A stretch of DNA of 64,000 nucleotides. Source: Bdellovibrionales bacterium. GTDB lineage: Bacteria; Bdellovibrionota; FAC87; UBA2466. The stretch lies in contig SXPJ01000048.1 of NCBI GenBank assembly GCA_005776395.1, positions 24,211 to 88,210 of the forward strand, written 5' to 3'. This document shows, one piece after another, positions 5,858-20,981 of this stretch (position 1 is the first letter of the stretch; every line of letters starts with the position of its first letter). The position numbers were made by a program, and so were the translations under genes. The notes under the pieces were generated by a model, which worked only from the letters and a program-made list of their open reading frames with translations, had not been told where the DNA came from and ran no database searches.

Positions 5858-5863
5858 TTAGAT

Positions 5864-7220: not shown

Positions 7221-7235
7221 TAGGTCAAAAAGAAA

Positions 7236-7275
7236 AAGCCGACCAGATTTTCATCGTCGGCTTTCCCTAAATTAT
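7236..7275. terminator. Rho-independent terminator-like hairpin
   Basis: GCCGAC-CAGATTTTCATC-GTCGGC stem-loop followed by a T-rich tract. Confidence 0.45.
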
Positions 7276-7384
7276 TTTAATAGCGTTATCTTAGTTGTAT
7301 TCGCAGGATAATTCTAATGAAGAACCGCCAGAACTCTTTTGAGTAGAACTGGCGATTCTTGCTAACTGAGTTCCGTAACCGGAA

Positions 7385-7633: not shown

Positions 7634-8029
7634 ATCAGAAACATCCCAAGAAGCGCTTTCAATGGCTTCTAGCGTAACAGCTCCAACGCTCTGTAGGGCA
7701 TCGATAACAGCTTTTGCCTTCTCACCCTTAACCTTAAGGCCATCGCTAGCCTGGGCTATGAGTGAAAAAAAGAATAAAGATAAGAAAACACTTTTTATGG
7801 GGACCTCTTTTTGGGTGGACTATTCTACAGGTAAACAAAAAACCACTCTTCTAATTCGAGTAGGACCAAACCACATTCCGAGGAATTTAACGCGTAACGT
7901 ATAAAATATCCAGGAATATAACTTCGTGAAAAATTCATGATTAAAAAACTTCATCTTAAAGAGTCGCAATTGGCAATGAACAGAGTAAAAAGAGCCTTAA
8001 TAAAAACTGTCCAAACCTAAAAAAGTCGC

Positions 8030-8719: not shown

Positions 8720-8835
8720 ATGCGCCCCCTAAGCCTATATTTTAATTATAAAAATTCTATCCTACACCTCCTTTTAGGCAAATACTTTCTCGTTAAGATT
8801 GCATTGTTTTCACTGGATAGATAAAACCCCTTTCA

Positions 8836-9924
8836 ATGACAGCCTCTATCTGCTCACCCTCAATCTCTCTTCCACCTTCTCGCCTTCACAAGCTTGGGCT
8901 CTCTTTTCCCTTTATGGTGGCTCCTATGGTGGGGATTAGCCATGTGGCCTTTCGAGAGCTAATACGAAGCTATCTACCTGATTCCCTCTCCCCCCTTCTT
9001 TTTACTGAAATGTTATCTACGCTAAGACTTCCCCATGAGGATCTAAGTGATCTTCCCGGCCCCTTAACTAGCTTAGGAGAAAACTATTTTGTTCCACAGC
9101 TCTTAGGTAATGATGAGACCTACATTTCTAACTCAATTGAAAGACTTTTGCCGTTTCACCCTTGGGGCTTTGATATCAATATGGGATGTCCAGCCTCTCA
9201 TCAACTTCAACACAATTGGGGTGTCCGACTTCTGGGTGACATAGACTATGCTTCACATGTTGTTGCCATTACAAAAAAACATTCTCCTAGACCTGTGAGT
9301 GTGAAGTTAAGAGCTGCCACAGGAGCTTATATCGACCTAAAATATCTTTTAGAGTTCACAAAAATGATGGAAGAGTCAGGGGCCGATTGGATAACACTTC
9401 ACTGTCGCACCCAAAATCAAGGGCACCACGGATATGCTCATTGGGATCTTGTAGGAGAGGTAGCTAGAGCCAGAAAAATCCCTGTAGTTGCAAATGGAGA
9501 TATTCATACTTGGCAAGATGCTATCGACTTAATGAAAACTTATCAGGTCGATGGAGCCATGATTGCTAGAGCGGCTACGGCTCGACCTTGGATTCTATGG
9601 CAAATAGCTAAAAAATTGGGCTATCAAGAAAAACCGACAAAGAGATGGGAAACTGAACCTCCTTGGACTCCTGATGAGGAAGGAAAAGAATATTTTAGAG
9701 CCGTTCTTAGATTCTCCTGTTTACTTGAAGATCATTTCACTGACTCTCCTTTTGCACTAAAAAAACTTCAGTTTTTTGTGGCACAAGGATCACGTTGGTT
9801 GCTATTTGGTCACCAGTTTTTTCATCTAGTGAAACGGTGTAAAAACTTGGTAGAGGTTCGAGATTTTGTAAATGACTACGCAGAAAAGACCCCTCAACCC
9901 ATGGGACAACGGGCAAGAACCTAA
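8836..9924 (+). CDS. tRNA-dihydrouridine synthase (Dus family). True start may be the internal MVAPM at 8914.
   Basis: APMVGISHVAFREL, DINMGCPA, VKLRAATG, ITLHCRTQ...PVVANGDI...DGAMIARAATARPWI match conserved Dus motifs. Confidence 0.85.
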   Translation: MTASICSPSISLPPSRLHKLGLSFPFMVAPMVGISHVAFRELIRSYLPDSLSPLLFTEMLSTLRLPHEDLSDLPGPLTSLGENYFVPQLLGNDETYISNSIERLLPFHPWGFDINMGCPASHQLQHNWGVRLLGDIDYASHVVAITKKHSPRPVSVKLRAATGAYIDLKYLLEFTKMMEESGADWITLHCRTQNQGHHGYAHWDLVGEVARARKIPVVANGDIHTWQDAIDLMKTYQVDGAMIARAATARPWILWQIAKKLGYQEKPTKRWETEPPWTPDEEGKEYFRAVLRFSCLLEDHFTDSPFALKKLQFFVAQGSRWLLFGHQFFHLVKRCKNLVEVRDFVNDYAEKTPQPMGQRART

Positions 9925-9927
9925 ACT

Positions 9928-11088
9928 CTATTTTTTCCGAACTAAAAGTCCCTCCGCTAAAAACTGAGCAATCTTATCGTTAGAATATCCGAGCCCGTGC
10001 ATAATAGAAAAACTATCCTGCCCTAAGGAAGGGCAAGGCTGTAAATTTGGACAATCTGCAAACCCCGCCCAAGACAAAGGATCCGAGTTAAGTTTGATTC
10101 GTGATTGTGAAACTTTAAGAAATTCTTCCCAAGGGATAACTCTAAAAAGACAGGCTTCAACATTTGTGCTGAGAGCTTCCCAATAAGAGGCCGGAGCATC
10201 TAAAAATAATTTCTCAAGTTCTGGAACCAAAGAAAGATCCTCTGCTCTCTCCTTCCAATCTTTTTTATCAACAATCTCACAAAACTGATCCCAGTGTTTT
10301 TTTTGAATAGCCTGCAAAGATATCCATTGCTGATCGCGACATTTATAAAATCTAGAATGGGCATAGGCTCCATTCAACTTGGAAAAAGCATTAAATTTAC
10401 CCTTGTCCTCTTCACTGGCAGATTCTTTCTCAAGGGCCTCGTAAGCTTTAGGAAGATAAAGACTTCTAAAGCCTTCATTGGCATTAGAGATTAAGTGCAT
10501 GCCTCGACGATTAGGATTAACCAAGTGAAGAAGAAGTTTAGTTAAAGGAGCAAAAACACCGCCAATTACATCTCCAAATTGAGCACTGTAGTTTAATCCC
10601 CCCTCTAAAAACCAATGACCGCAACCACTGGTAGCAATAAAATTAAGATCGTGCCCCGATTTTGCACTAAATTTATCACTCATTCCGCGCAATGATAGAT
10701 AGATAAGATCAGGATTTTTTTCTGCCAAATCTGCGTATCCCAAACCCAAACTATCCATGACTCCAGAGCGAAAATTTTCCACAAAAACATCCGCTTCAGC
10801 CGCCAATATTTTTACAATCTCTTGCCCCTCTTTTTTAGTTAAGTCGGTACAGATCGATTTTTTTCCCTGATTGAGCAGCTCAAAAACAGCGGAATATTCA
10901 GGTGCTCTACAGGGATCACCCTCAGGCCCTTTCTCCACCTTTATTACTTCAGCCCCATATTGGGTTAAAATACGGGTTAAATAAGGCCCCGTTAACATCA
11001 CAGAAAGATCTACAACCCGAATATGCTGAATAGGTTTAATAGCTTCATCATTCCATAGAGATTCTGACACGACGCCCCCTATCCGCAA
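9928..11088 (-). CDS. CoA-transferase family III (CaiB/BaiF-like)
   Basis: IRVVDLSVMLTGPYLTRILTQYGAEVIKVE N-terminal signature of family III CoA transferases. Confidence 0.8.
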   Translation of the reverse strand: MRIGGVVSESLWNDEAIKPIQHIRVVDLSVMLTGPYLTRILTQYGAEVIKVEKGPEGDPCRAPEYSAVFELLNQGKKSICTDLTKKEGQEIVKILAAEADVFVENFRSGVMDSLGLGYADLAEKNPDLIYLSLRGMSDKFSAKSGHDLNFIATSGCGHWFLEGGLNYSAQFGDVIGGVFAPLTKLLLHLVNPNRRGMHLISNANEGFRSLYLPKAYEALEKESASEEDKGKFNAFSKLNGAYAHSRFYKCRDQQWISLQAIQKKHWDQFCEIVDKKDWKERAEDLSLVPELEKLFLDAPASYWEALSTNVEACLFRVIPWEEFLKVSQSRIKLNSDPLSWAGFADCPNLQPCPSLGQDSFSIMHGLGYSNDKIAQFLAEGLLVRKK

Positions 11089-11576
11089 ATGAATTAGATT
11101 TTGTGGTTAATAAAATTAATGTTATCTATTTTAGACTCTTGTAAGGGGTTCACTCAAGTTCTCAAAAAACAAAAAGTCTCCTATGGGATCTCTAACAGAA
11201 AACTGAGACGCCTAGCGAAGTAACTGCTCTACGACGCGCCGAACAAGTTTAGTAATTTCAACGTAATTTTGTAATGGCTTAGCACACCTCTGCTTTGCTA
11301 CAAAGCTACGGATCCAATTTGGAAAGAGAAAGAGGTCAGTGCTCCAATAAGAGTCTGAGATAACTTTTGTATCTAGCAAAAATTAACACCACTCAAAATA
11401 TGGGGATTTACTGTTTTGAGTTTAGATGATGTTTTGTTTGCCAAAACAGCCCAAGAATTTAAATAGTTTGGAAGACAAAGAAGACCCAAAAAACTCCTAA
11501 AAAACACAGTATAAGGTGCCAGGTATAAATTATTAAATGACTCCACTTTTTACCATGCGCTGTGGCTCAGCAAGAA

Positions 11577-12314
11577 CTACTGGGCTTTTGTTATGTTTTT
11601 AGGTGGGAAATATTTTGTTTTAGAGGACTCTAATTTTCGATAGGCCACATCATAAAGCATAAAACGATTACCCGCCTGAGTTAACTCTGGATTTAAATCA
11701 GGATGATATTTTTTAGCCAGTTCTCTATATCTTTTTTGAATCATATTCCAATCTCTTTCGTTTGGAATTCCCATCACTCCAAGAGCATTAATAAGTTCTC
11801 TCGGGAGAAGAGTAATAGTCTCATCTTGTCTGCCATGTGGAGTCTGGTCTTTGTTTAAGGGCTGACTTTTAGAGGATTCAGAAGGGGCTGAGTAAACTTT
11901 CGGTTTTGTTCGATATTGAGGTTCTCTGGCTCTCTGTTTTTTTGAACTTATTAATGAAGTAATTATTTTTTCAGTAAGTTCAACGAATACTATTTTAACG
12001 AACCAAATACAGCTTGTCATTAAAGTTACAGGAATACCACTCAAGTCCCACTTTCGCTCACTGGTGAGTCTTTTCTCCAGATCTCCAGGTTGATAATAGG
12101 TGTAATAAAAGGCCCAGAAAAAGAGAAACCCCATAGGAAATAATAGTCCCGATGAATAACGGTTAAATTTGAGTTGCAAAAAATATTCTACAGCTACAAA
12201 AGCACCAATCGAAAGATAGAGTGAGGTGGCATCAGCCTTTTGATTAACGACCCCCTCTTTAATAGGATGGGCACGATTCTGATAAAGGTGAACTCTATAA
12301 TCTCTTACGTTCAT
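11577..12314 (-). CDS. Membrane protein with C-terminal J-domain (DnaJ-like)
   Basis: N-terminal transmembrane segments. C-terminal ALGVMGIPNERDWNMIQKRYRELAKKYHPDLN with an HPD motif. Confidence 0.6.
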   Translation of the reverse strand: MNVRDYRVHLYQNRAHPIKEGVVNQKADATSLYLSIGAFVAVEYFLQLKFNRYSSGLLFPMGFLFFWAFYYTYYQPGDLEKRLTSERKWDLSGIPVTLMTSCIWFVKIVFVELTEKIITSLISSKKQRAREPQYRTKPKVYSAPSESSKSQPLNKDQTPHGRQDETITLLPRELINALGVMGIPNERDWNMIQKRYRELAKKYHPDLNPELTQAGNRFMLYDVAYRKLESSKTKYFPPKNITKAQ

Positions 12315-12607
12315 AAATTACACTCTTAGCTTTTAAAGAAATGCAATTTCGAACCCAAGTTTTTTAGAGTGTTTAGGAGTTGAAGAGTTGATTATCTTTT
12401 TAACAGTGGCTAAGAAGAGTTTAATAGGTTGTCGAATTCATTCAGTTTTTAATGTGCCATCTTTTAAACACTTAAAAGAAAATTAAGTAAGATCTTAATA
12501 ATAGAAGAGTTTTTTACGCAATAGTTAAAAAACGACTAGCCCGATGGCGGTTTCCATGGTCAAATGCCGACTTAAATTTTTTTGTTTCTTTATTGGAAGG
12601 ATAAACA

Positions 12608-13234
12608 ATGGCTCTAACAGATTTAAACTCAAACCTTTTACTCATCTTAAGATGGATTCATATCTTAGCCGGTATCACTTGGATCGGACATCTTTACTTC
12701 TTTAATTTTGTAAATGTCCCCTTTCAAGCGGCGTTAGAAAAAGAGATTAAACCTAAAGTAAATCCCATTCTACTCTCTAGAGCCCTTTGGTGGTTTCGAT
12801 GGGGTGCGATGGTAACTTTCGTGATTGGCTTACTTCTATTCCTTATCAAGTATGGAATGCTTGGCGAAGCCACTGGGTTACTAAAAGACGAATCTGGTCA
12901 GATCACTGGTCGTGCTCAATGGATTATGTTGGGAATGCTGCTTGGAACTATCATGTGGTTCAATGTTTGGTTTGTAATTTGGCCTGCTCAAAAGCAAATT
13001 ATTACCTGGGTAAAAGCAGGACAAACTCCCCCTGAAATGCCGGGCTTAGCAAAGAGAGCTTTATTGTTCTCTAGAACCAACACTTATCTGTCAGCTCCCA
13101 TGCTATTTGCAATGATTGCTCCTAACAACTACGGAGCCTTTAGCTGGTGCACAGTGGTTGTTGTTTCTGTGATCGGATCAGCTGTTATTTGGGGACTTAT
13201 CAAAATGTCCCACAAAGTCGGTCAAACCGTCTAA
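12608..13234 (+). CDS. Integral membrane protein, HemJ/UPF0093-like (tentative)
   Basis: LRWIHILAGITWIGHLYFFNFVNVPF resembles the first HemJ helix (W.KalHii.vv.WfaGlfYL.RlfV). About 5 transmembrane segments. Confidence 0.4.
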   Translation: MALTDLNSNLLLILRWIHILAGITWIGHLYFFNFVNVPFQAALEKEIKPKVNPILLSRALWWFRWGAMVTFVIGLLLFLIKYGMLGEATGLLKDESGQITGRAQWIMLGMLLGTIMWFNVWFVIWPAQKQIITWVKAGQTPPEMPGLAKRALLFSRTNTYLSAPMLFAMIAPNNYGAFSWCTVVVVSVIGSAVIWGLIKMSHKVGQTV

Positions 13235-13242
13235 AAAATTAA

Positions 13243-13286
13243 AGGCCCGTGAGAATATCTTTAAGATTTTTCACGGGCTTTTTTAT
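13243..13286. terminator. Bidirectional rho-independent terminator
   Basis: GCCCGTGA-(19 nt)-TCACGGGC stem followed by TTTTTTAT. Lies between convergent genes. Confidence 0.6.
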
Positions 13287-13338
13287 GTCTTTTATTTTTT
13301 AATTAACTAGATTTTATCGGAGTTCGTCCCAATAAAAA

Positions 13339-13614
13339 CTAACTATCAATTCGCTTTTTAAGCTCTTTACCTACTTTAAAGAAAGGGAGCTTTTTTTCTG
13401 GAACAAAAACATCAGCGCCAGTTTTGGGATTTCTACCCACATAAGACTTATAGCTTTTTACAAACCAGCTTCCAAAACCACGAATCTCAATTCGATCCCC
13501 TTTGACCATAGACATAAAGAAGGAGTCAAAAATAGTATTCACTAGCTCTTCAGCCTTTTTCTTAGTCAAATTTGCTTTGCGCGCTAAATTTTCAATCAAT
13601 TCGGATTTGGTCAC
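13339..13614 (-). CDS. ihfB: Integration host factor beta subunit (HU/IHF family)
   Basis: MTKSELIENLA..., GDRIEIRGFGSW, GRNPKTGADVFVPEKKLPFFKVGKELKKR closely follow IHF-beta. Confidence 0.75.
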   Translation of the reverse strand: MTKSELIENLARKANLTKKKAEELVNTIFDSFFMSMVKGDRIEIRGFGSWFVKSYKSYVGRNPKTGADVFVPEKKLPFFKVGKELKKRIDS

Positions 13615-13819
13615 GATGCCTCCTCAAAACGTAGCCATACAATGCGTTGAGCCATTCAAAATCCTAAGTACTTTATTATTATAAGTTTTTGCTTAACTTA
13701 ATCCAAGTAAAAACAAATATTTGAGTGTTCTCACAATAGGAGTCAGTTGAGAAGGTATTATATATTGCGTCTAAATTAGGAGTCTACACCCCCACCACTT
13801 CTACTCAAAATAGGGGATC

Positions 13820-14431
13820 TCACACAACATCACGCCAAACGTTAGGTTCTTTGGAGCAGATGGCATCAGCTATTTCATAAAGAGGTAAAAAAGAGGTTAA
13901 ATTCTCGCGAAGTGACCTTCCATGAAGCTCGGGGCTGACAAGACATACTTTAAAATTATTTTTTAATCCCTTAACTAATTTCTCCGAAACCGGTTTTCCT
14001 TGAAAACAATCCACCCAAACCCAGTCTGCTTTTCCTTTGAAACAATTCACGAAAATATCAGGCTCGTAAGTGGAAAAACGGATTGCAAACCGGTTTTTAG
14101 CTTCAAAATGGGTCTTTTTAACTAGAGTTGGTAGCACAGTGTCTAAAAAGCAATAGTTCTCAATTTGATATTTTGCCAAAAGCTCTTCAACTCGATTTTC
14201 AAGCCCGTCCTCTTTAGTGTTAAGCCAAATAGGGCCTTGAATTCCAAGACTCTTAAACTCTTTGATCCATATTTCAAAATCATCCCCAAAGGTCCACGGA
14301 TCATGGGAGAGATGAATCGCCCCCCATCTTGAAACATCAGATCTTAAATCGATCTCAACTCCCCATGATTTTTCAAGAGATGCGAGATCTTTGATGGCAT
14401 TAACTCGATGTTTTAAAAATAACTTACTCAT
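13820..14431 (-). CDS. GDPD / PI-PLC-like TIM-barrel phosphodiesterase family protein (tentative); last gene of the glycan operon
   Basis: FLKHRVNAI...EIDLRSDVSRWGAIHLSHD resembles the HR(G)..E.D....dG...v.HD motif of glycerophosphodiester phosphodiesterases. The ATG overlaps the upstream stop. Confidence 0.4.
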   Translation of the reverse strand: MSKLFLKHRVNAIKDLASLEKSWGVEIDLRSDVSRWGAIHLSHDPWTFGDDFEIWIKEFKSLGIQGPIWLNTKEDGLENRVEELLAKYQIENYCFLDTVLPTLVKKTHFEAKNRFAIRFSTYEPDIFVNCFKGKADWVWVDCFQGKPVSEKLVKGLKNNFKVCLVSPELHGRSLRENLTSFLPLYEIADAICSKEPNVWRDVV

Positions 14432-16461
14432 GAACCCATTTCCTCGGTCATTCCCCCTGAAAGTAAAGCGATAGCTGTTAATTGATTTAATCCATCAACT
14501 CCAGACCGCCAGTGAGGTTTTCTCCAGGCTCGCGTAATACTTCTCAGGTTAGGAAAAATATTTTTCGCAACAGCTTGAACCTCTTGATCTGTCGGATTGC
14601 CCTTAATCTCAACTAAGGTACGATTAATATCATTGGGCAAAACTTCAAAAGAGATTTTACAATTAGCGATCTCTTTTAGGGCCTTAAGTAGCGTTCCAAT
14701 AGGGGCATCATTCCAAAAAGTATATCTAACGATAAACTCGAAAGTACTCCCAGCCATGACCTCTTCACGCGTAACCTCTTTTTCCGGAAGATACTGAATA
14801 ACCCAATCAGCAAACTCTTTCTGAGGAGCAATGTGTTTTATAGAATCGGACTCTCTCTTTACAAAACTATCAACCACCTGTTTGGGTGAATGGCCTCGTT
14901 CATTCACGTCTCTTCGATACTTCCATGCAAATCTAACAATTTCATGAGGATCGATAAAAATTTTCAAATCAAACTTGGATCTAAGACCTCGTAAATAAAG
15001 GGTATGGAGCCCCTGAATAATTAGAGTCTTAGTCGGTTTGATCTCTTTAGCCTCTGAAAATATTCCCATGGCATGATCGTAATGAGATTGTAAAACTGTA
15101 GAGCCCTTAGCAAGTTGCAAAGCGTGGCTAGCCATCATTGATAAATGATTAGCTTTAGGATTAAGATGGGTATACTCCTGCCACTTCTCATGGTTACGTT
15201 CCCACTTATGATAATCATCTCCTTCGACGACTAGGGTGTTTTTAGAATTAAAGAGATCTTGAAAAATATGGCTTAGATGATTTTTTCCTGAACCACTATT
15301 TCCTGCAATTCCTAAAATTAAGGGACGAGCTCGTCCCTGAAGTTTAGCCTCTTGCTCAAGAACCAACTTCCAAATAACCAATAAGATTCCTGCCATAGCT
15401 GTTTGTAATAAAGTAAAGGCTACACCGGTCACCATTCCCTCTAAATGGCCCCCTAATTTGGAAAGGAGAACAAAGTTAACCATGTAAATAATCTGAAAGC
15501 CCCAAAAGAGTGCTTTCGAAACATTTAGATAAAGGGCAAAGAAAAGACAGAAGAAAGGGATAACCCAATAATACCAGCCAGGCATAGCATTGGTACCCAT
15601 AAGTAGGGCCCCAAACAAGGAAGCGGATCCAAAGATAAGTCCCCTTTCAGTAATTCTAGAGGAGACGCAAAGGCGTCCTAAAACAACTAGCACAATAAAA
15701 ACCCCTAAATAGACAACTTGCCCGGATCCAAAATTAAGGTTGGCAGCAAAAAGTCTCATAGCTTCAGGCGAAGTCGCGCTCGCATAAAACAACCTACCTG
15801 CATGGTAAACCGGAATAAAACCTAAAGCTGTAATTCCACTCCAAATCGCAAGCCACAATCCTATACAGGCTAATGCTTTCTTTGCGAAATTCTGATGCCA
15901 CAAATAGGCCAGAATAAAAGGGACTAGAACCACTACATGAAACTTAGACAAAGTCGCACAGGCCATTAATAGAGCTGAGGCTTCTATTTTTCGAAGCGTT
16001 AAAAAAATGAGAGATAAAATACACAACATCATAACCACTACATCTAACTGCCCGTGGATATAGGTAATAAAAATAGTAATGGGATTAAACCAATAGAGCA
16101 AAAAGAAAGACCTTCGTCTCTCTCCACAAATTCTCATCATTCCCCACAACAGAAAAACATCCGCCACTAATAGGGGAAGTTTCATTGCGATAAGACTTAA
16201 GGGTATATCGCCCATACTCATAGCACCCAAAATCTTAAAGGCTAAAAACTTAGGTAAAAATAAAATTCCAAATAAAAAGCTTCCATAAGGAAAAAAATGG
16301 GCCGGAGATAATGCCCAGGGATTTTGTCCTAAATGTAAAATTGAGGTGTCTATAAAAGGAATAAATAGCTCTTTTAAATACTGAGAACCGAAAAAGGGCA
16401 TCAGCCCCACACGAATCAAAACACCCCACCAAAACAGACGGTTTTTTAGCAGTTGTCTCAT
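14428..16461 (-). CDS. Fusion protein: N-terminal multi-TM GT-C-like (DUF2029 / mannosyltransferase-like) domain plus C-terminal uridine-kinase / phosphoribulokinase-family P-loop kinase domain
   Basis: About 12 transmembrane helices, then LILGIAGNSGSGKNHLS (P-loop) and VVEGDDYHK, typical of the PRK/UDK family. ATG at 16461 overlaps the GT2 stop (ATGA). Confidence 0.65.
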   Translation of the reverse strand: MRQLLKNRLFWWGVLIRVGLMPFFGSQYLKELFIPFIDTSILHLGQNPWALSPAHFFPYGSFLFGILFLPKFLAFKILGAMSMGDIPLSLIAMKLPLLVADVFLLWGMMRICGERRRSFFLLYWFNPITIFITYIHGQLDVVVMMLCILSLIFLTLRKIEASALLMACATLSKFHVVVLVPFILAYLWHQNFAKKALACIGLWLAIWSGITALGFIPVYHAGRLFYASATSPEAMRLFAANLNFGSGQVVYLGVFIVLVVLGRLCVSSRITERGLIFGSASLFGALLMGTNAMPGWYYWVIPFFCLFFALYLNVSKALFWGFQIIYMVNFVLLSKLGGHLEGMVTGVAFTLLQTAMAGILLVIWKLVLEQEAKLQGRARPLILGIAGNSGSGKNHLSHIFQDLFNSKNTLVVEGDDYHKWERNHEKWQEYTHLNPKANHLSMMASHALQLAKGSTVLQSHYDHAMGIFSEAKEIKPTKTLIIQGLHTLYLRGLRSKFDLKIFIDPHEIVRFAWKYRRDVNERGHSPKQVVDSFVKRESDSIKHIAPQKEFADWVIQYLPEKEVTREEVMAGSTFEFIVRYTFWNDAPIGTLLKALKEIANCKISFEVLPNDINRTLVEIKGNPTDQEVQAVAKNIFPNLRSITRAWRKPHWRSGVDGLNQLTAIALLSGGMTEEMGS

Positions 16462-17186
16462 ACTCTTCCTTGTGAACGGGAAAGCTGGCACATGTACTTC
16501 ACCATTCCCAAAATGGTTTTGTATCGACTAAAAAAACTAGAAGCCCAATTGGAAACTCCATGAACCCTAGGAGGAAAAAGAACCGGTATGGTCTCAACAT
16601 GGAATTTATTTTTAAGAGCACAGAAAAGAACATAAAGATCGAACGCAAAGTTATTTGGAGGCGCAGTTAGAGAATTTAACAATTGTCTTGTAAAAATTTT
16701 AGGCTGGGCATTTAGCTCTTTGGTTTTAATTCCTAAAATTAAAAAGGCTAGGATCTCAAAAATATGAGTTACCCATTTATCTTTCCAGTTTCTTCCACTT
16801 CTAACCCCTTTAACAAGCACCTTATCTTTTTCAACTGACTTTAGCTTTTTCAGAGCCGTAAAAGCATCCCTAGGATCACACTGCTGATCCGCATGGGACC
16901 AACCAATAATCGGCGCTGAAGTATTTTTCAAACCCTGAAGTACGCCATAACCATAACCTAAATTAACTGGAACAATTACAGTACTAAACCACTGGGAAAG
17001 TTCTGTTTTTTGAAGTTCAGTTAACACCTCTTTGGAATTATCCTGACTTCCATTCTCAACAAGAACCAATTGAAATCGTTTCGAGTCGAATCCAGCTTCT
17101 TCAGCAGCGCTGACAGCTCTTTGCAATAGAGTTTTTAAGGATTTAGATTCGTTGTAACAAGGCAATACCAGTTCAAACTCTTTCAC
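16458..17186 (-). CDS. Family 2 glycosyltransferase (polyprenyl-phosphate sugar transferase, DPM1/GtrB-like)
   Basis: LVLPCYNESKSL...LVLVENGSQDNS GT-A signature. GTG start overlaps the upstream stop. Confidence 0.7.
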   Translation of the reverse strand: MKEFELVLPCYNESKSLKTLLQRAVSAAEEAGFDSKRFQLVLVENGSQDNSKEVLTELQKTELSQWFSTVIVPVNLGYGYGVLQGLKNTSAPIIGWSHADQQCDPRDAFTALKKLKSVEKDKVLVKGVRSGRNWKDKWVTHIFEILAFLILGIKTKELNAQPKIFTRQLLNSLTAPPNNFAFDLYVLFCALKNKFHVETIPVLFPPRVHGVSNWASSFFSRYKTILGMVKYMCQLSRSQGRV

Positions 17187-18766
17187 TTTGTAATCTCCTT
17201 TGAAAACTTAGTTCTAGGTTCAAAATGATACCCTCCAAAAATCTCCTGCCAATAAAGTGCTTCAGCTAGAGAGTCGGGATCTCCCCAACACAGATAACCC
17301 GTTAGTGGGATTTCTCTAACTCTAAAACCCTGCTTAATTAAAACCTCAAAAACAGAATCAAGATACATCTCGCCATTAACTAAAATCTCCTGCTTTTTTA
17401 GTTCCTGGATTCCTTGAGCTAATATTTCAATATTTCGAAACCAAAAGGTCCCTACTAATAACGAATCTTTACTTGGATTTTTGGAGAGGGGTGACTTTAC
17501 CGATACTTTTTTAACTTGAGGATAGTCCCCCTGATTGTCAGATTCTACATAGGCAAAGGCCTTAGGATGAGAATCAGCTCCTGGATATCCTTTTATCGTA
17601 AAAATAGCTGCATCGCAGTCGGGGTGAGCCTTAAACCGATTCCATAATCTAGGATCTAAAACAATTCCATGATCACAGGAACTCACAATGACCTCTTTTT
17701 TAAGATCTAGCGCCGTTATTCCAAACTCCGTTGATAAAGCCTGGCCACTAGGCGTCTGTTTTAACGAAACAATCTTTTCCTTGGAGCCCGATAGGTAAGA
17801 CTTTACTGAATCTAAGGTTACAAGAACGGAAGTTTTACTTTTGGGCAATGTTTCCAATGCCCTCTGGTACATGGGAGTCCCTGAAATTGGAATGAAGGGC
17901 TTCGGACAGGAGGTCACTGAAGCAAATCGACTTCCTAGACCTGCCATGGGCATGAGAACTTGATCGACTTCACCTCTTTGCATTCCTAAAAACCTATTGT
18001 GATCTTTCAAGCTTTTTTCCCAATACTCAAAGATTCTTAAATCTTCAGGAGTTCCCCATTGAAAAAAACCAGGAATTTCAAATACCCGGACATGAGCGTT
18101 AGATCTCATTTGAAGTAAGGACTGAACAGTAAGACTCGAGTAGTACTCGCCATTGAGCTGTATCTTATTCGTAATCTGATACTCAATCGCCTCTCTTAAA
18201 AGCTTTGCACTTTTGAAATAGTAGCCCCCTGAAGAGGCAAATTCCTGTTCTCTGTTCTCTGTGAAAGAGCCCTTCTCTTTAACCTCAACTACCCGTTCCC
18301 CCTCCATTCGAGAGTACGCGTACTGTAAAGGGCTTCGATAATGAGCATGATAGCCTCGATAGGAGATGACACAAGCATCACATTCGGTCTCTCTTACAAA
18401 GTTAGAGAAACGAACTCCATCCCAAACCATCGCGTAATCACAATAGCTTAAAAAAACAGGGGCCTCAGGATCTAGAAACTCCATTGCTTTTAATGCAGCA
18501 AAGCCCGGTCCCTGATTATGTTTCTCAATAAAAATCTGTTTTCCTTGAGGTCTCTCCTTCGATAGAACGGTAGGCAGCTCAGTGTTTTTATGATTCTCAG
18601 CCATGACAAAAAAACAGGGCCAGCTCTCAGGAAAGTTCTCCAAAAGTCGCTGAATCATTGGAGTTCCATTGATCGGGATAAGCGGCTTAGGTTCAAGATA
18701 GCCCGCGGCCTGATAACGGGTCCCTTGTCCCGACATCGGAATAAGTAGTTGGATCTTTTTATCCAT
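17183..18766 (-). CDS. Tandem-domain sugar-phosphate nucleotidyltransferase (two RmlA/GalU-like NTP-transferase domains)
   Basis: LLIPMSGQGTRYQ...PKPLIPINGTPMIQ and a second copy LMPMAGLGSRFAS...PKPFIPISGTPMYQ, each like the G-x-G-T-R-(L) nucleotidyltransferase N-terminus. Confidence 0.65.
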   Translation of the reverse strand: MDKKIQLLIPMSGQGTRYQAAGYLEPKPLIPINGTPMIQRLLENFPESWPCFFVMAENHKNTELPTVLSKERPQGKQIFIEKHNQGPGFAALKAMEFLDPEAPVFLSYCDYAMVWDGVRFSNFVRETECDACVISYRGYHAHYRSPLQYAYSRMEGERVVEVKEKGSFTENREQEFASSGGYYFKSAKLLREAIEYQITNKIQLNGEYYSSLTVQSLLQMRSNAHVRVFEIPGFFQWGTPEDLRIFEYWEKSLKDHNRFLGMQRGEVDQVLMPMAGLGSRFASVTSCPKPFIPISGTPMYQRALETLPKSKTSVLVTLDSVKSYLSGSKEKIVSLKQTPSGQALSTEFGITALDLKKEVIVSSCDHGIVLDPRLWNRFKAHPDCDAAIFTIKGYPGADSHPKAFAYVESDNQGDYPQVKKVSVKSPLSKNPSKDSLLVGTFWFRNIEILAQGIQELKKQEILVNGEMYLDSVFEVLIKQGFRVREIPLTGYLCWGDPDSLAEALYWQEIFGGYHFEPRTKFSKEITK

Positions 18767-19712
18767 GAGGTAACTCTCTTTGCTGGCGTAATTTTTCAGT
18801 GGGCAAATCTCTAATAACGGCTCTTATCTCTTTGGGAACCTCTTGGAAGTTGGGTGAAAGCCGATAAAGAATCGCTGTCGCAAGCCATAATTCTGCCATA
18901 TCCTTATCTTTCGAGATTGAAGACACAGGAAAGAAAACCTCGCCTGAAGCTGTAGGTTGCAAAACCCTATCTAGTCTTTCAGAAAAGACTGCTACATCGG
19001 GAAAAAAACACCTAAAAGGCATTGGGTTAGCGGCAAAAAGCTGAAAGAGTTTATCAAAGTTTGGGATCTCAGTAAGCAATGAATAGAGTCCAGAGTAATT
19101 AAAATCTTTGCAGAACTCTTTTTCCAGAGACTCCCATTCGGTAATAATAGAATCGTCATCTCCATGAAGAATGATCCCATGGCTCTCAAGAAAATAGATT
19201 CCAGCATCTCCCTTGATCTGTTTCGAAAGAACCCAACCTGGACGACAGGCCTCTACAAAAATAGTTTCTCTTTGAGTGTTGTTTTTTAACCACCCGATGA
19301 CTCGAGTTCGATCCATGTTAAATTCGTGATAGAAAAGCAATGATGCTAAAGAGTGAAAGTGAAGAACATACTTTTTAGGTAACAAAGCATGAAAGCCGGT
19401 CTCCATTGAGGCCCTTCCAAGGCCGTCCCCTAGGAGAGTTGTTTCTTTAATTAGTTTCGCGTAATTTTCTTCGGCCTCTGATTCTTTCCAAGACTCACTT
19501 TTTAGAACCTGAGCCATGGTTTTGTAATCAACATGAGCTATCCCTGTATTTTCAGTGACTCTATCCAAACGAAAGCCGGTGGCTTTAATCCAAAGGGTAT
19601 TTTTATCCTCTTTGATTGAAATATTTCCTCCAGCCCCTTGAGTCCAGACTGGAATACGAGCGCCTATTTTTTGGCACAAATAGCTTAATTCTATTTCTAT
19701 TTTTTTAGTCAT
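18759..19712 (-). CDS. Class II aldolase/adducin-family protein (MtnB / AraD-like)
   Basis: GAGGNISIKEDKNTLWIKATG and HFHS motifs resemble the class II aldolase N-terminal fold and its zinc-binding His pair. Confidence 0.5.
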   Translation of the reverse strand: MTKKIEIELSYLCQKIGARIPVWTQGAGGNISIKEDKNTLWIKATGFRLDRVTENTGIAHVDYKTMAQVLKSESWKESEAEENYAKLIKETTLLGDGLGRASMETGFHALLPKKYVLHFHSLASLLFYHEFNMDRTRVIGWLKNNTQRETIFVEACRPGWVLSKQIKGDAGIYFLESHGIILHGDDDSIITEWESLEKEFCKDFNYSGLYSLLTEIPNFDKLFQLFAANPMPFRCFFPDVAVFSERLDRVLQPTASGEVFFPVSSISKDKDMAELWLATAILYRLSPNFQEVPKEIRAVIRDLPTEKLRQQRELPHG

Positions 19713-20389
19713 TGCAGTAACATTTCTAGTTCATTCAAAGAGTTGATTACTTTCACATCACTTGGAATGGTATCTTTTTGAATCAATTTTCTAAATTCTG
19801 TTGTCAAAACACTTTGCATTCCCAATTTCAGTGCTGGAGCTATATCAGTTTCTAAGCTGTCTCCCACCATCACGCACTCATTGGGTTTGCAACCTAACTT
19901 TTCAAGAGCAGATTGAAAAAGACTTAAGTGGGGTTTTTCCACCCCCATTTCTTCTGAGGTAATAATAGCAGGAAATAAACTCCCAGTAGGATCTATCACT
20001 CTTAGTTTAATCATCTGGGTTCTAATATTTTCATTAGTTAAAATTATTTTAGGCAATTTACCTAATCGTCCCTCAAAAAGTTTTTGGCGTTCCAAGCTTC
20101 TCCATTGCTCACCAATATGTTCAGCTATTTTTTTTTCATAGGCCTGCATCAGATCTAAAACTGCACCATGAGAATATTGATTATTTGTATCGAGTAACTG
20201 CTTGAAATAGAGAATTCGATTTCTAGCCCCCACATGCCCCTCTCCCAATCGAGACTTAATTATCTGACGCGCTATTAAAAATTCCTCAGAGAGGGGATCG
20301 ATTCCTATCGCTTTAAGAGCATAAGCATAGGCAGCCTCCGCGTCATAAAGCGTGTCATCTAAATCTAAAATAAGGCAGGTCTTTGTCAT
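19709..20389 (-). CDS. HAD-superfamily hydrolase/phosphatase
   Basis: ILDLDDTLYD (motif I DxDxT), later K and DD motifs. First gene of the operon. Confidence 0.8.
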   Translation of the reverse strand: MTKTCLILDLDDTLYDAEAAYAYALKAIGIDPLSEEFLIARQIIKSRLGEGHVGARNRILYFKQLLDTNNQYSHGAVLDLMQAYEKKIAEHIGEQWRSLERQKLFEGRLGKLPKIILTNENIRTQMIKLRVIDPTGSLFPAIITSEEMGVEKPHLSLFQSALEKLGCKPNECVMVGDSLETDIAPALKLGMQSVLTTEFRKLIQKDTIPSDVKVINSLNELEMLLQ

Positions 20390-20513: not shown

Positions 20514-20981
20514 TTACAATAACAGTATCGAAACAGGGTAACTAATCCCCTCTCCAATAGTTATAGCCTCTTTATCTTCACCGATTAAAATAAATCGGTT
20601 TATATTCAGGGCAGTTCCAAGGAACTTATGCTCCTCTTTCTTCAGACCTCTTCCCTTTAAAGGTAGGACAATTTCAATACGATCGACTATCGCTTCAGGA
20701 ATTAAGTACTGCATCTGACGAAGCCCAGACTTAAGTTGCTCTAGGGCCTTAGTTACCAAACGTTCCTCTAATTTGAACTTAACCTCCCGGAGACGAAACA
20801 GAGTTCTATTTCCAATAGAGGTAGAACTAAAGAGATCGGGCAGGGACAATCCTTTTCCTAAACAAATATCGGTTTTGTAAGAGGGATTAAGATACTGAGC
20901 AAGTTGCTTGTCTCCAACTGAAAGAAATACCTCCCCTTCAGTCACTCTTAAAATATCAGCACAATAGGCTTCAGGGTTCAA
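20514..20981 (-). CDS. Hypothetical protein, flanked by 26-nt direct repeats
   Basis: 155-aa ORF with no recognisable domain. Confidence 0.45.
   Translation of the reverse strand: MNPEAYCADILRVTEGEVFLSVGDKQLAQYLNPSYKTDICLGKGLSLPDLFSSTSIGNRTLFRLREVKFKLEERLVTKALEQLKSGLRQMQYLIPEAIVDRIEIVLPLKGRGLKKEEHKFLGTALNINRFILIGEDKEAITIGEGISYPVSILLL

What the first reader, a model, noticed from the sequence alone, without database searches (positions are those of the whole stretch)
14428..16461. GT-C-like membrane glycosyltransferase domain fused to a P-loop uridine-kinase / phosphoribulokinase-family domain
An N-terminal ~12-TM domain resembling polyprenyl-phosphate-sugar-dependent GT-C enzymes is followed by GIAGNSGSGK...GDDYH, a soluble nucleoside/sugar kinase signature. 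Such a fusion is atypical and implies substrate channelling between phosphorylation and membrane glycosyl transfer.
Basis: inference. Interest (0 to 1): 0.55.

Follow-up and report, generated by a model that had tools for sequence, protein, structure and literature searches.

The report
Membrane glycosyltransferase fused to phosphoribulokinase
One gene encodes a 12-helix membrane sugar-transferase joined to a cytoplasmic kinase that looks like the Calvin-cycle enzyme phosphoribulokinase; it is the hallmark of an uncharacterised six-gene cassette, found in hundreds of species, that probably makes an unknown pentose-derived sugar and attaches it to the cell envelope.

Summary

The fusion is not a frameshift artefact and not rare. 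At least 485 species genomes from more than 15 phyla encode it, and this GT-C clade is almost always fused.

It sits in a translationally coupled cassette kept across phyla: HAD phosphatase, class II aldolase-family enzyme, tandem nucleotidyltransferase, ArnC-like GT2, the fusion, and a Pfam-invisible GDPD-fold phosphodiesterase, often with GtrA.

Topology (12 TM, N-in/C-in) puts the kinase in the cytoplasm. By analogy with solved GT-C enzymes the transferase site faces the periplasm, so direct substrate channelling is unlikely.

My best reading is a Gtr/Arn-type lipid-linked glycan-decoration system with its own precursor branch that starts with phosphorylation of a ketopentose phosphate. The sugar and the acceptor remain unknown. 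I found no literature on it.

The parts
14428..16461 (-). Fusion gene (677 aa from ATG 16461; an upstream in-frame GTG at 16491 would give 687 aa): GT-C domain plus PRK-type kinase
   Evidence: ORF. Start-codon context ATGA overlap plus SD-like AAGGAAG. 100% identical 677-aa protein P0001 in NCBI, ENA and Logan.
15337..16461 (-). GT-C membrane glycosyltransferase domain (aa 1-375): 12 TM helices, N-in/C-in; invariant or near-invariant D38, D140, K173, S231-P-E233, G295-W296..W299..P302 in the predicted periplasmic loops
14428..15327 (-). Cytoplasmic phosphoribulokinase-type P-loop kinase domain (aa ~379-677), including the PRK C-terminal region
   Evidence: Pfam PRK E 2.1e-35. NCBIfam PRK07429 at 199.5 bits, covering model positions 5-266 of 326. 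Solved PRKs 6gve, 9qko, 6kev, 6hzk and 5b3f at E 1e-33 to 1e-36. Catalytic and Ru5P-site residues are 77-79 of 79 conserved.
16458..17186 (-). GT2 glycosyltransferase (242 aa), ArnC/GtrB/DPM1-like; candidate polyprenyl-phosphate sugar synthase
   Evidence: Pfam Glycos_transf_2 E 1.3e-16. Best NCBIfam hit is ArnC. The only solved sequence relatives are ArnC. Present in 73 of 87 loci and fused to the nucleotidyltransferase in 4 loci.
17183..18766 (-). Tandem sugar-phosphate nucleotidyltransferase (527 aa): NT_N at 17981-18766 and NT_C at 17183-17980; both keep GxGxR...K and acidic residues
   Evidence: Pfam NTP_transf_3 and NTP_transferase. Family alignments. Best solved relative for both halves is 4evw, then GlmU, HddC and RmlA. 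Present in 75 of 87 loci.
18759..19712 (-). Class II aldolase/adducin-family metalloenzyme (317 aa): His triad, Glu and phosphate pocket invariant
   Evidence: Pfam Aldolase_II E 9e-10. Invariant G28, N30, K43, G46, S102, E104, H118, H120, H178. Family profile hits 3m4r at E 4e-30 and FucA at 1e-11. Present in 70 of 87 loci and fused to the C-terminus of the PRK domain in 3 loci.
19709..20389 (-). HAD-IA phosphatase (226 aa)
   Evidence: Pfam Hydrolase, HAD_2 and Hydrolase_like. NCBIfam TIGR02253 at 95 bits and haloarchaeal RuBP 5-phosphatase model at 75 bits, both below cut-off. Present in 67 of 87 loci.
13820..14431 (-). GDPD/PI-PLC-fold phosphodiesterase-like protein (203 aa); no Pfam or PDB sequence match
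   Evidence: AF2 pLDDT 97.2. Foldseek top 15 hits are all glycerophosphodiester phosphodiesterases, TMq about 0.7. H8 and R9 are at least 90% conserved; E26, D28, H43 and E74 are invariant. Zero Pfam hits and zero PDB-sequence hits for the family profile; a single-sequence scan gave only two chance-level matches, E 0.5 and 1.2. Present in 74 of 87 loci. PGAP names the plasmid orthologues 'PI-PLC/GDPD family protein'.

Best explanation
The gene encodes one bifunctional inner-membrane protein.

**What the protein is**
- An N-terminal 12-helix GT-C glycosyltransferase. Its presumed catalytic face is periplasmic.
- A short linker, then a C-terminal cytoplasmic phosphoribulokinase-type kinase.

**What the operon is**
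- The fusion is the signature gene of a six-gene, translationally coupled operon (window 20389..13820, minus strand).
- The operon works as a Gtr/Arn-type, polyprenyl-phosphate-dependent glycan-decoration system that carries its own precursor-supply branch.

**Proposed sequence of steps**
1. The PRK domain phosphorylates ribulose-5-phosphate, or a close ketose phosphate, at C1 at the membrane surface. This is inferred from complete conservation of PRK catalytic and Ru5P-site residues.
2. The class II aldolase-family enzyme, which has a ketose-phosphate pocket and a metal site, rearranges the bisphosphate. I favour epimerisation by retro-aldol/aldol, but this is inferred.
3. The HAD phosphatase removes one phosphate. 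The haloarchaeal RuBP 5-phosphatase gives cyclised Ru1P and is the precedent.
4. The GDPD-like phosphodiesterase and the two nucleotidyltransferase domains convert the monophosphate into an NDP-sugar. This is inferred and the order is unknown.
5. The ArnC-like GT2 transfers the sugar to polyprenyl phosphate.
6. The lipid-linked sugar is flipped. GtrA is encoded in many relatives and fused to the protein in some, but not found in this window.
7. The GT-C domain transfers the sugar to a periplasmic envelope acceptor.

**Role of the fusion**
- It does not channel a substrate.
- It ties the first committed cytoplasmic step to the last periplasmic step in 1:1 stoichiometry.
- It anchors the kinase at the membrane, probably as a dimer as in PRKs. 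The other soluble enzymes may assemble there too.

**Shown versus inferred**
- Shown: folds, residue conservation, gene linkage and further gene fusions.
- Inferred: substrates, order of the middle steps, the sugar and the acceptor.
For: **Domains**
- Pfam and NCBIfam place the C-terminal domain in PRK.
- Solved PRKs are the best relatives at E about 1e-35, with 35% identity over 190 aligned residues.

**PRK residues**
- Query D415, H418 and R422 align with T. elongatus D43, H46 and R50 (R50 = Chlamydomonas R64).
- Y461 and H463 align with Y89 and H91 (= Chlamydomonas Y103 and H105).
- K514, R517, D518 and R522 align with K142, R145, D146 and R150 (= Chlamydomonas R159, D160 and R164).
- These are conserved in 77-79 of 79 family members (alignment). 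Their roles come from 10.1101/422709, PMC5241800 and PMC6800369.

**Topology**
- 12 TM helices, basic N-terminus, Arg/Lys-rich even loops, C-terminus inside.

**Cassette**
- In the window, consecutive genes overlap by 4-8 nt.
- The same genes lie next to the fusion in 67-75 of 87 loci from more than 15 phyla and one archaeon.
- No other family is comparably conserved in these neighbourhoods.

**Extra fusions that order the pathway**
- GT-C+PRK+AldII in 3 loci.
- NT_N+NT_C+GT2 in 3 loci and NT_C+GT2 in 1.
- GtrA+GT-C+PRK in Flexibacter. About 8 representatives of roughly 840 aa, with the GT-C match starting near residue 140-167, have the length expected of that architecture.

**Gtr/Arn-type system**
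- The GT2 matches only ArnC among solved proteins.
- GtrA lies within 9 kb in 24 of 87 loci. It sits between the nucleotidyltransferase and GT2 on an E. coli IncR plasmid and an Azospirillum plasmid, the latter beside O-antigen-type genes.
- Many loci lie inside polysaccharide gene clusters.

**Precedent**
- An HAD acts on RuBP next to a FucA-type enzyme in haloarchaea: PMC9700705.
Against: - No enzyme activity, product or acceptor is known for any member.
- The PRK domain scores below NCBIfam's PRK cut-off (199.5 against 236 bits).
- Its Walker A motif has Asn (56 of 79) where P-loop kinases usually have Ser or Thr.
- A C1 phosphate on a ketose is not anomeric. A canonical PRK product therefore cannot be turned into a GT2 donor by a nucleotidyltransferase alone, and the middle of the pathway needs chemistry not yet described.
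- If the aldolase-family enzyme really cleaves its substrate, as in haloarchaea, the sugar skeleton would be destroyed.
- No GtrA was found in the 64-kb window.
- Some loci (L005, L040, L045, L069) have only the fusion plus the aldolase-family gene nearby.
- The periplasmic location of the conserved GT-C residues comes from hand-assigned topology, not from the model coordinates.
Confidence: 0.6

Rival explanations
1. Ketofuranose-activation variant, the most novel form of the same system. PRK plus the HAD phosphatase turn Ru5P into a ketopentose-1-phosphate that can close a furanose ring. NT domain 1 makes NDP-1-ketopentose, which cyclises to a 1,2-cyclic phosphate. The GDPD/PI-PLC-like enzyme opens that to the anomeric 2-phosphate. 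NT domain 2 then makes a true NDP-ketopentofuranose for GT2 and GT-C.
For: - It uses every cassette enzyme, including the otherwise unexplained second nucleotidyltransferase domain and the phosphodiesterase.
- Both NT domains keep catalytic motifs.
- Ru1P from RuBP is observed cyclised (PMC9700705).
- From established knowledge rather than a test here: PI-PLC/GDPD-fold enzymes work through or on cyclic phosphates.
- Nothing on this cassette or its sugar turned up in the held literature.
Against: - It is entirely inferential. No NDP-ketopentose or ketose-2-phosphate nucleotidyltransferase is known to me.
- Gene order across loci does not consistently place the GDPD-like gene between the two NT domains.
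- The two NT domains could simply be a pseudo-heterodimer.
Confidence: 0.12
2. The kinase domain is a uridine/cytidine kinase, as databases annotate it. It would supply nucleotides for NDP-sugar synthesis rather than phosphorylate a sugar.
For: - Source annotations read 'uridine kinase'.
- PF00485 covers both enzymes.
- Weak hits to udk models: 89 and 83 bits.
Against: - Both udk equivalog models score far below their cut-offs (180 and 220 bits) and far below the PRK model at 199.5 bits.
- Solved PRKs score 18 orders of magnitude better than Udk.
- The PRK-specific H418, R422, Y461 and H463, which bind the Ru5P phosphate in PRK structures, are invariant.
- The match extends into the PRK-specific C-terminal region, model positions 5-266.
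- Fusion to, and tight linkage with, a ketose-phosphate aldolase-family enzyme.
Confidence: 0.04
3. The PRK domain is not a pathway enzyme. It would be a regulatory, sensing or dimerising module (ATP or sugar-phosphate binding) that gates the GT-C, or it would act on a lipid such as polyprenol.
For: - The two active sites are on opposite membrane faces, so the fusion must have a non-channelling rationale.
- The Walker A Ser/Thr is replaced by Asn or Asp in most members.
- PRKs dimerise through the C-terminal region (10.1101/422709).
Against: - The catalytic Asp (D518) is invariant, as are D415, the Lys of the P-loop and all Ru5P-site residues, across roughly 30%-identical members from more than 15 phyla. 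This is the pattern expected of an active enzyme with a phosphorylated small-molecule substrate.
- There is obligate linkage to soluble sugar-phosphate enzymes.
Confidence: 0.1
4. Catabolic or unrelated bundling. PRK plus HAD plus the aldolase-family enzyme form a non-carboxylating pentose-bisphosphate-type route (Ru5P to RuBP to Ru1P to DHAP plus glycolaldehyde). The product would not be the transferred sugar; it could, for example, supply a C2/C3 unit for a different substituent.
For: - The same three enzyme types, HAD RuBP 5-phosphatase and FucA-type aldolase acting downstream of RuBP, are proven in haloarchaea (PMC9700705).
- The HAD gives a sub-threshold hit to that phosphatase model.
- The aldolase family is closest to true aldolases (3m4r-type and FucA) and keeps the FucA-like Glu.
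Against: - The cassette has no reductase or transaminase to use DHAP or glycolaldehyde.
- The nucleotidyltransferases and GT2 would be left without a dedicated substrate.
- The whole set is inherited as one unit with inter-domain fusions linking both halves.
- It occurs in minimal-genome CPR bacteria, where a futile ATP-consuming bypass seems unlikely.
Confidence: 0.1
5. The N-terminal domain is a non-catalytic GT-C-fold scaffold or lipid-binding subunit, like PIG-U of GPI transamidase, that merely anchors the kinase to the membrane.
Against: - Catalytic GT-Cs score as well or better: GPI-MT-I 28.0, ALG3 26.6, ALG6 25.8, PimE 20.5.
- Invariant D140, K173, W296, W299 and P302, with D38 (70 of 79) in the first outer loop, fit a conserved active site.
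- A partner GT2 and GtrA are co-inherited. Those would be pointless without a periplasmic transferase, although a second PMT-like GT-C exists in 14 loci.
Confidence: 0.04

Closest known systems
Gtr (GtrA/GtrB/GtrC) O-antigen glucosylation and Arn (ArnC/ArnE-F/ArnT) lipid A L-Ara4N modification systems
   Same: The logic is the same: a GT2 loads a sugar onto polyprenyl phosphate, a small flippase moves it (GtrA in many relatives), and a GT-C enzyme transfers it outside the cytoplasm. The GT2 here matches ArnC, and ArnT is a structural hit.
   Different: The GT-C is a compact PIG-M/ALG3/PimE-like 12-TM type fused to a kinase. The cassette also carries five soluble precursor enzymes (kinase, HAD, aldolase-family, double nucleotidyltransferase, GDPD-like). 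The sugar is unknown, and no GtrA is found in this window.
Type II (cyanobacterial/plant/archaeal) phosphoribulokinase, e.g. T. elongatus PRK (6gve), M. hungatei PRK (5b3f)
   Same: Same fold family, 35% identity over the kinase core. P-loop Lys, catalytic Asp and all Ru5P-binding residues are conserved, and the match extends into the PRK C-terminal region.
   Different: It is fused to a membrane protein. There are no redox cysteines and no RuBisCO context in the window. It scores below NCBIfam's PRK cut-off. Asn replaces the Walker A Ser/Thr. It occurs in heterotrophs, CPR bacteria and gut Firmicutes.
Non-carboxylating pentose bisphosphate pathway of haloarchaea (RuBP 5-phosphatase plus Ru1P aldolase; PMC9700705)
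   Same: An HAD phosphatase and a class II (FucA-type) aldolase-family enzyme are encoded together and act downstream of a ketopentose 1,5-bisphosphate.
   Different: There the pathway is catabolic and RuBP comes from R15P isomerase. Here RuBP would come from a PRK-type kinase, and the genes are welded to nucleotide-sugar and lipid-linked glycosylation genes.
GDP-/ADP-heptose pathway (GmhA, HddA/HldE kinase, GmhB HAD phosphatase, HddC/HldE nucleotidyltransferase)
   Same: The logic is the same: sugar-phosphate, then kinase to a bisphosphate, then an HAD phosphatase removes the distal phosphate, then a nucleotidyltransferase makes the NDP-sugar. HddC is among the solved relatives of both NT domains. 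The pathway outline rests on established knowledge.
   Different: The kinase belongs to a different family (PRK-type rather than GHMP or PfkB). PRK phosphorylates a non-anomeric C1 of a ketose, so extra steps (aldolase-family, GDPD-like, second NT) are needed.
Compact GT-C enzymes: GPI mannosyltransferase I (PIG-M/Gpi14), ALG3, ALG6, mycobacterial PimE
   Different: Sequence identity is 9-15%. The window protein has no significant Pfam hit. Homologues carry only weak or inconsistent hits to PIG-U, ALG6/8, GT87 and MptA_B.

Membership tests
GT-C glycosyltransferase superfamily | Multi-pass membrane protein with the conserved GT-C helical module | tested here: met
GT-C glycosyltransferase superfamily | Conserved acidic residue(s) in the first extracytoplasmic loop or on the outer face | tested here: met
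   D38 in the IPFxD motif after TM1 is D in 70 of 79 and N in 7. D140 is invariant. K173 is invariant. The periplasmic placement is from hand-assigned topology, not from a structure with ligand.
GT-C glycosyltransferase superfamily | Uses a polyprenyl-phosphate-linked donor | not testable with these tools
   Only contextual evidence: a co-inherited ArnC-like GT2 (73 of 87 loci) and GtrA (24 of 87 loci, two plasmids, and fused in Flexibacter).
A named Pfam family of GT-C enzymes (GT87, ALG6/8, PIG-U, MptA_B) | Significant match to the family's sequence model | tested here: not met
   The window protein has no Pfam hit in residues 1-385 at E<=0.01. Homologues carry scattered weak precomputed hits to four different GT-C families.
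Phosphoribulokinase (EC 2.7.1.19), type II | PRK/Udk P-loop kinase fold with Walker A | tested here: met
   PF00485 E 2.1e-35. GxSGxGK is invariant, but the next residue is Asn in 56 of 79 instead of Ser/Thr.
Phosphoribulokinase (EC 2.7.1.19), type II | Catalytic Asp and Ru5P-binding residues (Chlamydomonas R64, Y103, H105, R159, D160, R164; R. sphaeroides D42, H45, K165) | tested here: met
   The equivalents D415, H418, R422, Y461, H463, K514, R517, D518 and R522 are conserved in 77-79 of 79.
Phosphoribulokinase (EC 2.7.1.19), type II | Reaches the curated family score (NCBIfam PRK07429) | tested here: not met
   199.5 bits against a cut-off of 236. It is the best-scoring model by far, but sub-threshold.
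Phosphoribulokinase (EC 2.7.1.19), type II | Ru5P to RuBP activity; association with RuBisCO/CBB genes | not testable with these tools
   Activity cannot be tested here. No RuBisCO or CBB gene appears among the called genes of the related loci looked at. The rest of the window was not annotated.
Uridine kinase (Udk) | Reaches the Udk equivalog model scores | tested here: not met
   PRK05480 scores 89.2 against a cut-off of 180. TIGR00235 scores 83.1 against 220.3. Solved Udk reaches only E 2.5e-17, against PRK at about 1e-35.
Three-component Gtr/Arn-type glycan modification system | GT2 polyprenyl-phosphate glycosyltransferase plus flippase plus GT-C encoded together | tested here: inconclusive
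   GT2 and GT-C are adjacent in the window, and the GT2 is ArnC-like. No GtrA-like ORF is found in the 64-kb window, but one is present in 24 of 87 related loci and on both plasmids.
Glycerophosphodiester phosphodiesterase (GDPD/PI-PLC-like) for the 203-aa neighbour | TIM-barrel GDPD fold with a His/Arg, Glu/Asp metal site and second His | tested here: met
   Foldseek top 15 hits are all GDPD, TMq about 0.7 and E 1e-5. H8 and R9 are at least 90% conserved; E26, D28 and H43 are invariant. Assigning these to the GDPD catalytic roles is by motif order, not by structural superposition.
Glycerophosphodiester phosphodiesterase (GDPD/PI-PLC-like) for the 203-aa neighbour | Match to the Pfam GDPD model or to solved GDPD sequences | tested here: not met
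   No GDPD model matched in Pfam, for the query or for any of 55 family members even at E<=1. The family profile has no PDB sequence hits at E<=10.

The most novel reading that the evidence does not exclude
The cassette is a previously unrecognised route that activates a ketopentofuranose (ribulo- or xylulofuranose) as a glycosyl donor.

- A PRK-type kinase and an HAD 5-phosphatase convert Ru5P into a ring-closable ketopentose-1-phosphate.
- The first nucleotidyltransferase and the GDPD/PI-PLC-like enzyme move the phosphate from C1 to the anomeric C2 via a 1,2-cyclic phosphate.
- The second nucleotidyltransferase makes an NDP-ketofuranose.
- That sugar is loaded on polyprenyl phosphate and transferred by the fused GT-C.

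A corollary is that PRK-type kinases have a widespread non-Calvin-cycle role in envelope glycosylation of heterotrophs, CPR bacteria and some archaea.
Probability: 0.12. Interest if true: 0.9.

Novelty: new variant of a known kind. Interest (0 to 1): 0.68.

Why it matters
1. It points to a whole, widely distributed envelope-glycosylation module whose sugar is unknown. It occurs in at least 485 species in more than 15 phyla, including CPR bacteria, gut Lachnospiraceae and Bacteroides, Rickettsiales and an E. coli IncR plasmid. All components are currently mis- or under-annotated as 'uridine kinase' or 'hypothetical protein'.

2. It would give phosphoribulokinase, regarded as one of two enzymes unique to the Calvin cycle (PMC5241800), a second, probably heterotrophic role. 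It would also supply a large pool of non-CBB relatives relevant to how the cycle's kinase originated.

3. The enzyme set (kinase, HAD, class II aldolase-family, two nucleotidyltransferases, phosphodiesterase) does not fit any nucleotide-sugar pathway I know of, so new carbohydrate chemistry is likely.

4. The E. coli plasmid copy makes it directly testable.

Tried and rejected
**Searches that found nothing**
- Literature searches for the fusion or cassette found nothing relevant. The term sets were: phosphoribulokinase + GT-C/glycosyltransferase/polyprenyl; the PDB title 'cyanobacteria specific phosphoribulokinase'; PRK + Hyella; PRK-like + transmembrane; xylulose + capsule + nucleotidyltransferase; uridine kinase + aldolase + GDPD + GT. 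The held library lacks most subscription papers, so absence is not proof.
- Pfam on the N-terminal domain gave no hit, so I had to go to structure.
- Sequence searches of the 203-aa protein and its family profile against PDB and Pfam gave nothing usable. Only the fold search identified it.

**Ideas tested and dropped**
- Frameshift or two genes: rejected.
- Uridine kinase: rejected on scores and residues.
- Direct substrate channelling: rejected on topology.
- A further conserved cassette gene, sought by all-against-all clustering of neighbourhood ORFs: none found beyond the seven domains. A PMT-like second GT-C occurs in 14 loci, and the small clusters were not inspected and are probably shadow ORFs.
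- Promoter and terminator scans around the operon were at chance level and uninformative.

**Left unresolved**
- I could not discriminate aldolase from epimerase from dehydratase for the class II aldolase-family protein. It has the FucA-like Glu, and it also has a Lys that I recall (from memory, not tested here) as AraD-like in the phosphate pocket.
- I could not assign nucleotide or sugar specificity to the two NT domains. The best relative, 4evw, is itself uncharacterised.

Full report
**1. The observation**

The minus strand carries one uninterrupted ORF ending at 14428. It starts at GTG 16491 (687 aa) or at ATG 16461 (677 aa). Three things favour the ATG:
- It overlaps the stop codon of the upstream gene (…AGAGTATGA…).
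- It follows an AAGGAAG Shine-Dalgarno-like stretch.
- The identical protein in public assemblies is 677 aa (P0001).

Below I use 677-aa numbering unless stated.

**2. The C-terminal domain is a PRK-type kinase**

Scores:
- Pfam PF00485 (PRK/uridine kinase) matches at E 2.1e-35.
- Among NCBIfam models the best is phosphoribulokinase PRK07429: 199.5 bits, covering model positions 5-266 of 326, but below its cut-off of 236.
- The uridine kinase equivalogs reach only 89 and 83 bits against cut-offs of 180 and 220.
- Among solved proteins the best matches are cyanobacterial, plant and archaeal PRKs at E 1e-36 to 1e-33. Uridine kinase scores 2.5e-17.
- Identity to Thermosynechococcus PRK (6gve) is 35% over 190 aligned columns.

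Residues. I used the gap-free first alignment block and the residue numbers in PMC6800369 (Cys19 in the P-loop; Arg50 = Chlamydomonas Arg64; Lys142; Asp146). The roles of these residues are described in 10.1101/422709 and PMC5241800.

| Query residue(s) | T. elongatus PRK | Chlamydomonas PRK | Role |
|---|---|---|---|
| D415, H418, R422 | D43, H46, R50 | R422 = R64 | Ru5P phosphate site, catalysis |
| Y461, H463 | Y89, H91 | Y103, H105 | Ru5P phosphate site |
| K514, R517, D518, R522 | K142, R145, D146, R150 | R159, D160, R164 | Ru5P binding, catalytic Asp |

All of these are present in 77-79 of 79 aligned family members.

One deviation: the residue after the Walker A lysine is Asn (56 of 79), or Asp, Ser or Thr, rather than the usual Ser/Thr.

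**3. The N-terminal domain is a GT-C**

No Pfam model matches residues 1-385. Homologues carry only scattered weak hits to PIG-U, ALG6/8, GT87 and MptA_B.

An AlphaFold2 model built on 79 sequences is very confident: mean pLDDT 95.3, pTM 0.93.
- Foldseek against the PDB returns eight GT-C proteins first: GPI mannosyltransferase I, ALG6, PIG-U, ArnT, GAB1, ALG9, STT3 and ALG3. TM-scores are 0.48-0.64 and probability 0.97-1.0. After those the list is noise.

Hydropathy, the model's helices and the positive-inside rule give 12 TM helices with both termini in the cytoplasm. The loops predicted to face outward carry the family's conserved polar residues:
- D38 in IPFxD after TM1 (70 of 79)
- D140 and K173 (79 of 79)
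- SPE at 231-233
- GW..W..P at 295-302

The topology assignment was made by hand, and I could not inspect the model coordinates.

**4. The fusion is real, old and widespread**

- More than 110 full-length homologues (29-82% identity) keep both domains.
- A scan of one genome per species found at least 485 genomes encoding relatives. The 80 best all span residues ~1-670.
- They come from Bdellovibrionota/Oligoflexia (nearest: a Lake Baikal Bdellovibrionales MAG at 75%), Myxococcota, Verrucomicrobiota, several CPR lineages, Omnitrophota, Bacteroidota, Lachnospiraceae/Clostridium, Rickettsiales, Acetobacter, Erwinia, Melainabacteria, Acidobacteriota, Nitrospirota, Armatimonadota and one Woesearchaeote.
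- Searching 1.84 billion representatives with the GT-C domain alone gave 697 hits. Of 132 new top hits, 103 also contain the PRK domain. Almost all the rest are short fragments that end inside the GT-C domain.

This GT-C clade is therefore essentially defined by the fusion.

**5. Genomic context: a conserved cassette**

In the window, six genes on the minus strand overlap by 4-8 nt:

| Coordinates | Product |
|---|---|
| 20389-19709 | HAD phosphatase |
| 19712-18759 | class II aldolase-family protein |
| 18766-17183 | protein with two nucleotidyltransferase domains |
| 17186-16458 | GT2 |
| 16461-14428 | the fusion |
| 14431-13820 | 203-aa protein |

The 203-aa protein has no Pfam match, its family profile has no PDB sequence match, and a single-sequence scan gave only two chance-level hits. 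It folds confidently (pLDDT 97.2) as a glycerophosphodiester phosphodiesterase TIM barrel. The top 15 Foldseek hits are all GDPD, and it has a conserved H8 and R9 (at least 90%) with invariant E26, D28, H43 and E74.

Across 87 loci, the number with a homologue within 9 kb of the fusion:

| Component | Loci (of 87) |
|---|---|
| each NT domain | 75 |
| GDPD-like | 74 |
| GT2 | 73 |
| aldolase-family | 70 |
| HAD | 67 |

No other family is comparably linked. A PMT-like second GT-C occurs in 14 loci.

Further natural fusions connect the parts:
- GT-C+PRK+aldolase-family in three CPR loci
- NT_N+NT_C+GT2 in three loci and NT_C+GT2 in one
- GtrA+GT-C+PRK in Flexibacter flexilis, with about eight ~840-aa representatives of matching length and offset

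Other context:
- GtrA lies within 9 kb in 24 of 87 loci.
- On an E. coli IncR plasmid and an Azospirillum brasilense plasmid, PGAP annotates the order NT / GtrA / GT2 / 'PI-PLC/GDPD family' / 'uridine kinase' / HAD. A class II aldolase follows the HAD on the E. coli plasmid and precedes the NT gene on the Azospirillum one, which also lies next to O-antigen-type ABC transporter and GDP-fucose genes.
- Only 2 of 5426 complete E. coli genomes carry it.
- Many other loci lie in polysaccharide clusters. The window's copy is flanked by housekeeping genes and has no GtrA in 64 kb.

**6. Component identities**

- *GT2.* The best NCBIfam hit is ArnC, and the only solved sequence relatives are ArnC. This places it in the polyprenyl-phosphate glycosyltransferase subgroup.
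- *Aldolase-family protein.* The invariant residues are G28, N30, K43, G46, S102, E104, H118, H120 and H178. By my own recollection of the E. coli FucA sequence (a lead, not a test), these correspond to FucA's phosphate pocket, catalytic/metal Glu and Zn His triad. The family profile hits the class II aldolase domain 3m4r at E 4e-30 and FucA at 1e-11. It is therefore an active metal-dependent enzyme acting on a phosphorylated ketose. Whether it cleaves, epimerises or dehydrates cannot be told from sequence.
- *NT domains.* Both keep GxGxR…K and acidic residues. Both resemble an uncharacterised Vibrio NDP-sugar pyrophosphorylase (4evw), then GlmU, HddC and RmlA.
- *HAD.* It is a generic subfamily IA member with sub-threshold similarity to the haloarchaeal RuBP 5-phosphatase model.

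**7. Mechanism**

Because PRK needs ATP and the membrane domain has an even number of helices, the kinase is cytoplasmic. GT-C active sites face outward. Direct channelling between the two activities is therefore implausible.

The linkage pattern supports one pathway:
1. A PRK-type kinase makes a ketose 1,5-bisphosphate. A 1-phosphorylated ketose is the kind of substrate class II aldolase-family enzymes bind, and this enzyme is sometimes fused to the kinase.
2. The HAD removes one phosphate. In haloarchaea an HAD converts RuBP to cyclised Ru1P next to a FucA-type enzyme (PMC9700705).
3. The nucleotidyltransferases make an NDP-sugar for the GT2, to which they are sometimes fused.
4. The GT2 makes a polyprenyl-phosphate sugar.
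5. GtrA flips it.
6. The GT-C transfers it to an envelope acceptor.

This parallels the logic of the heptose nucleotide-sugar pathway (kinase, HAD phosphatase, nucleotidyltransferase; established knowledge).

The unsolved point is chemical. C1 of a ketose is not anomeric, so a canonical PRK product cannot directly yield a GT2 donor. The unexplained GDPD-like enzyme and the second NT domain suggest extra chemistry. My speculative proposal is phosphate migration from C1 to C2 through a 1,2-cyclic phosphate, giving an NDP-ketofuranose. I rate it at about 12%.

I see the fusion itself as stoichiometric and spatial coupling of the committed first step to the final step, with the probably dimeric kinase as a membrane-proximal platform. 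This is inference.

**8. Comparison with known systems, and novelty**

At system level this is a variant of the Gtr/Arn three-component scheme. At domain level it combines a compact PIG-M/ALG3/PimE-like GT-C with a type II-like PRK.
- It fails curated membership thresholds for PRK and for any Pfam GT-C family.
- It meets the structural and residue-level criteria for both.
- I found no paper describing the fusion or the cassette, within the limits of the held library.
- Databases call it 'uridine kinase', which the evidence contradicts.

I classify it as a new variant of a known kind. There is a realistic chance that the precursor branch is new biochemistry, and that PRK-type kinases have a broad role outside the Calvin cycle.

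**9. Verdict**

- Observation: confirmed.
- Interpretation: partly supported. The fusion is real; the channelling idea is not supported.
- Interest: 0.68. The family is large, cross-phylum and unstudied. It involves an enzyme thought to be specific to carbon fixation, it has an unexplained enzyme set, and it is testable through an E. coli plasmid.

Noticed in passing
L088 (E. coli plasmid NZ_CP145712.1, record 6022-14984), next to IS26 at record 16621-17325: A complete version of the cassette, including a separate GtrA and an extra 586-aa hypothetical protein, sits on a 33-kb IncR plasmid of a human-stool E. coli. An identical copy is on a plasmid from a bullfrog isolate. Only 2 of 5426 complete E. 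coli genomes have it, so it looks like a mobile surface-modification module.
   Followed up: partly
L024:4088-5641, L002:7595-9346, L007:12706-14454 (and 14 loci in all): A second large membrane protein of roughly 520-580 aa, with weak PMT/PMT_2 (GT-C) similarity in two of the three examples scanned, accompanies the cassette in a minority of loci. It may be a second transferase using the same lipid-linked donor. The 523-aa protein in the same position in L003 is instead a flavin oxidoreductase-like protein.
   Followed up: partly
window 20514-20981 (-): A 155-aa ORF lies directly upstream of the cassette with no Pfam match. Its only homologue among the 87 loci is in the same-organism contig L001, so it is not part of the conserved module.
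   Followed up: partly
window 12608-13234 (+) and 13339-13614 (-): A 208-aa membrane protein matches only the C-terminal part of the Pfam 'Urate oxidase N-terminal' model (E 6.5e-25), without an attached oxidase domain. It sits next to an HU/IHF-type DNA-binding protein just downstream of the cassette.
   Followed up: no
L005 (Logan SRR29362533 contig), 3002-9991: In a contig with Bacteroidota-type markers (Por_Secre_tail genes) the fusion has only GtrA and the aldolase-family gene beside it. Two UbiA-family prenyltransferases, a GFO/IDH/MocA oxidoreductase, an SDR and a DHQ-synthase-like gene lie nearby, loosely reminiscent of the mycobacterial decaprenyl-phospho-ribose/arabinose route. This may be an alternative way of loading the lipid carrier.
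   Followed up: no
L001 107-872 (same organism as the window; this stretch was not located in the window itself): A HEPN / minimal nucleotidyltransferase pair (toxin-antitoxin-like) lies a few kilobases beyond the cassette in the same-organism contig.
   Followed up: no
window 416-489 (+) and 6469-6544 (-): tRNA-Arg(TCG) and tRNA-Pro(TGG) are the only Rfam or ARAGORN RNA genes in the window.
   Followed up: yes
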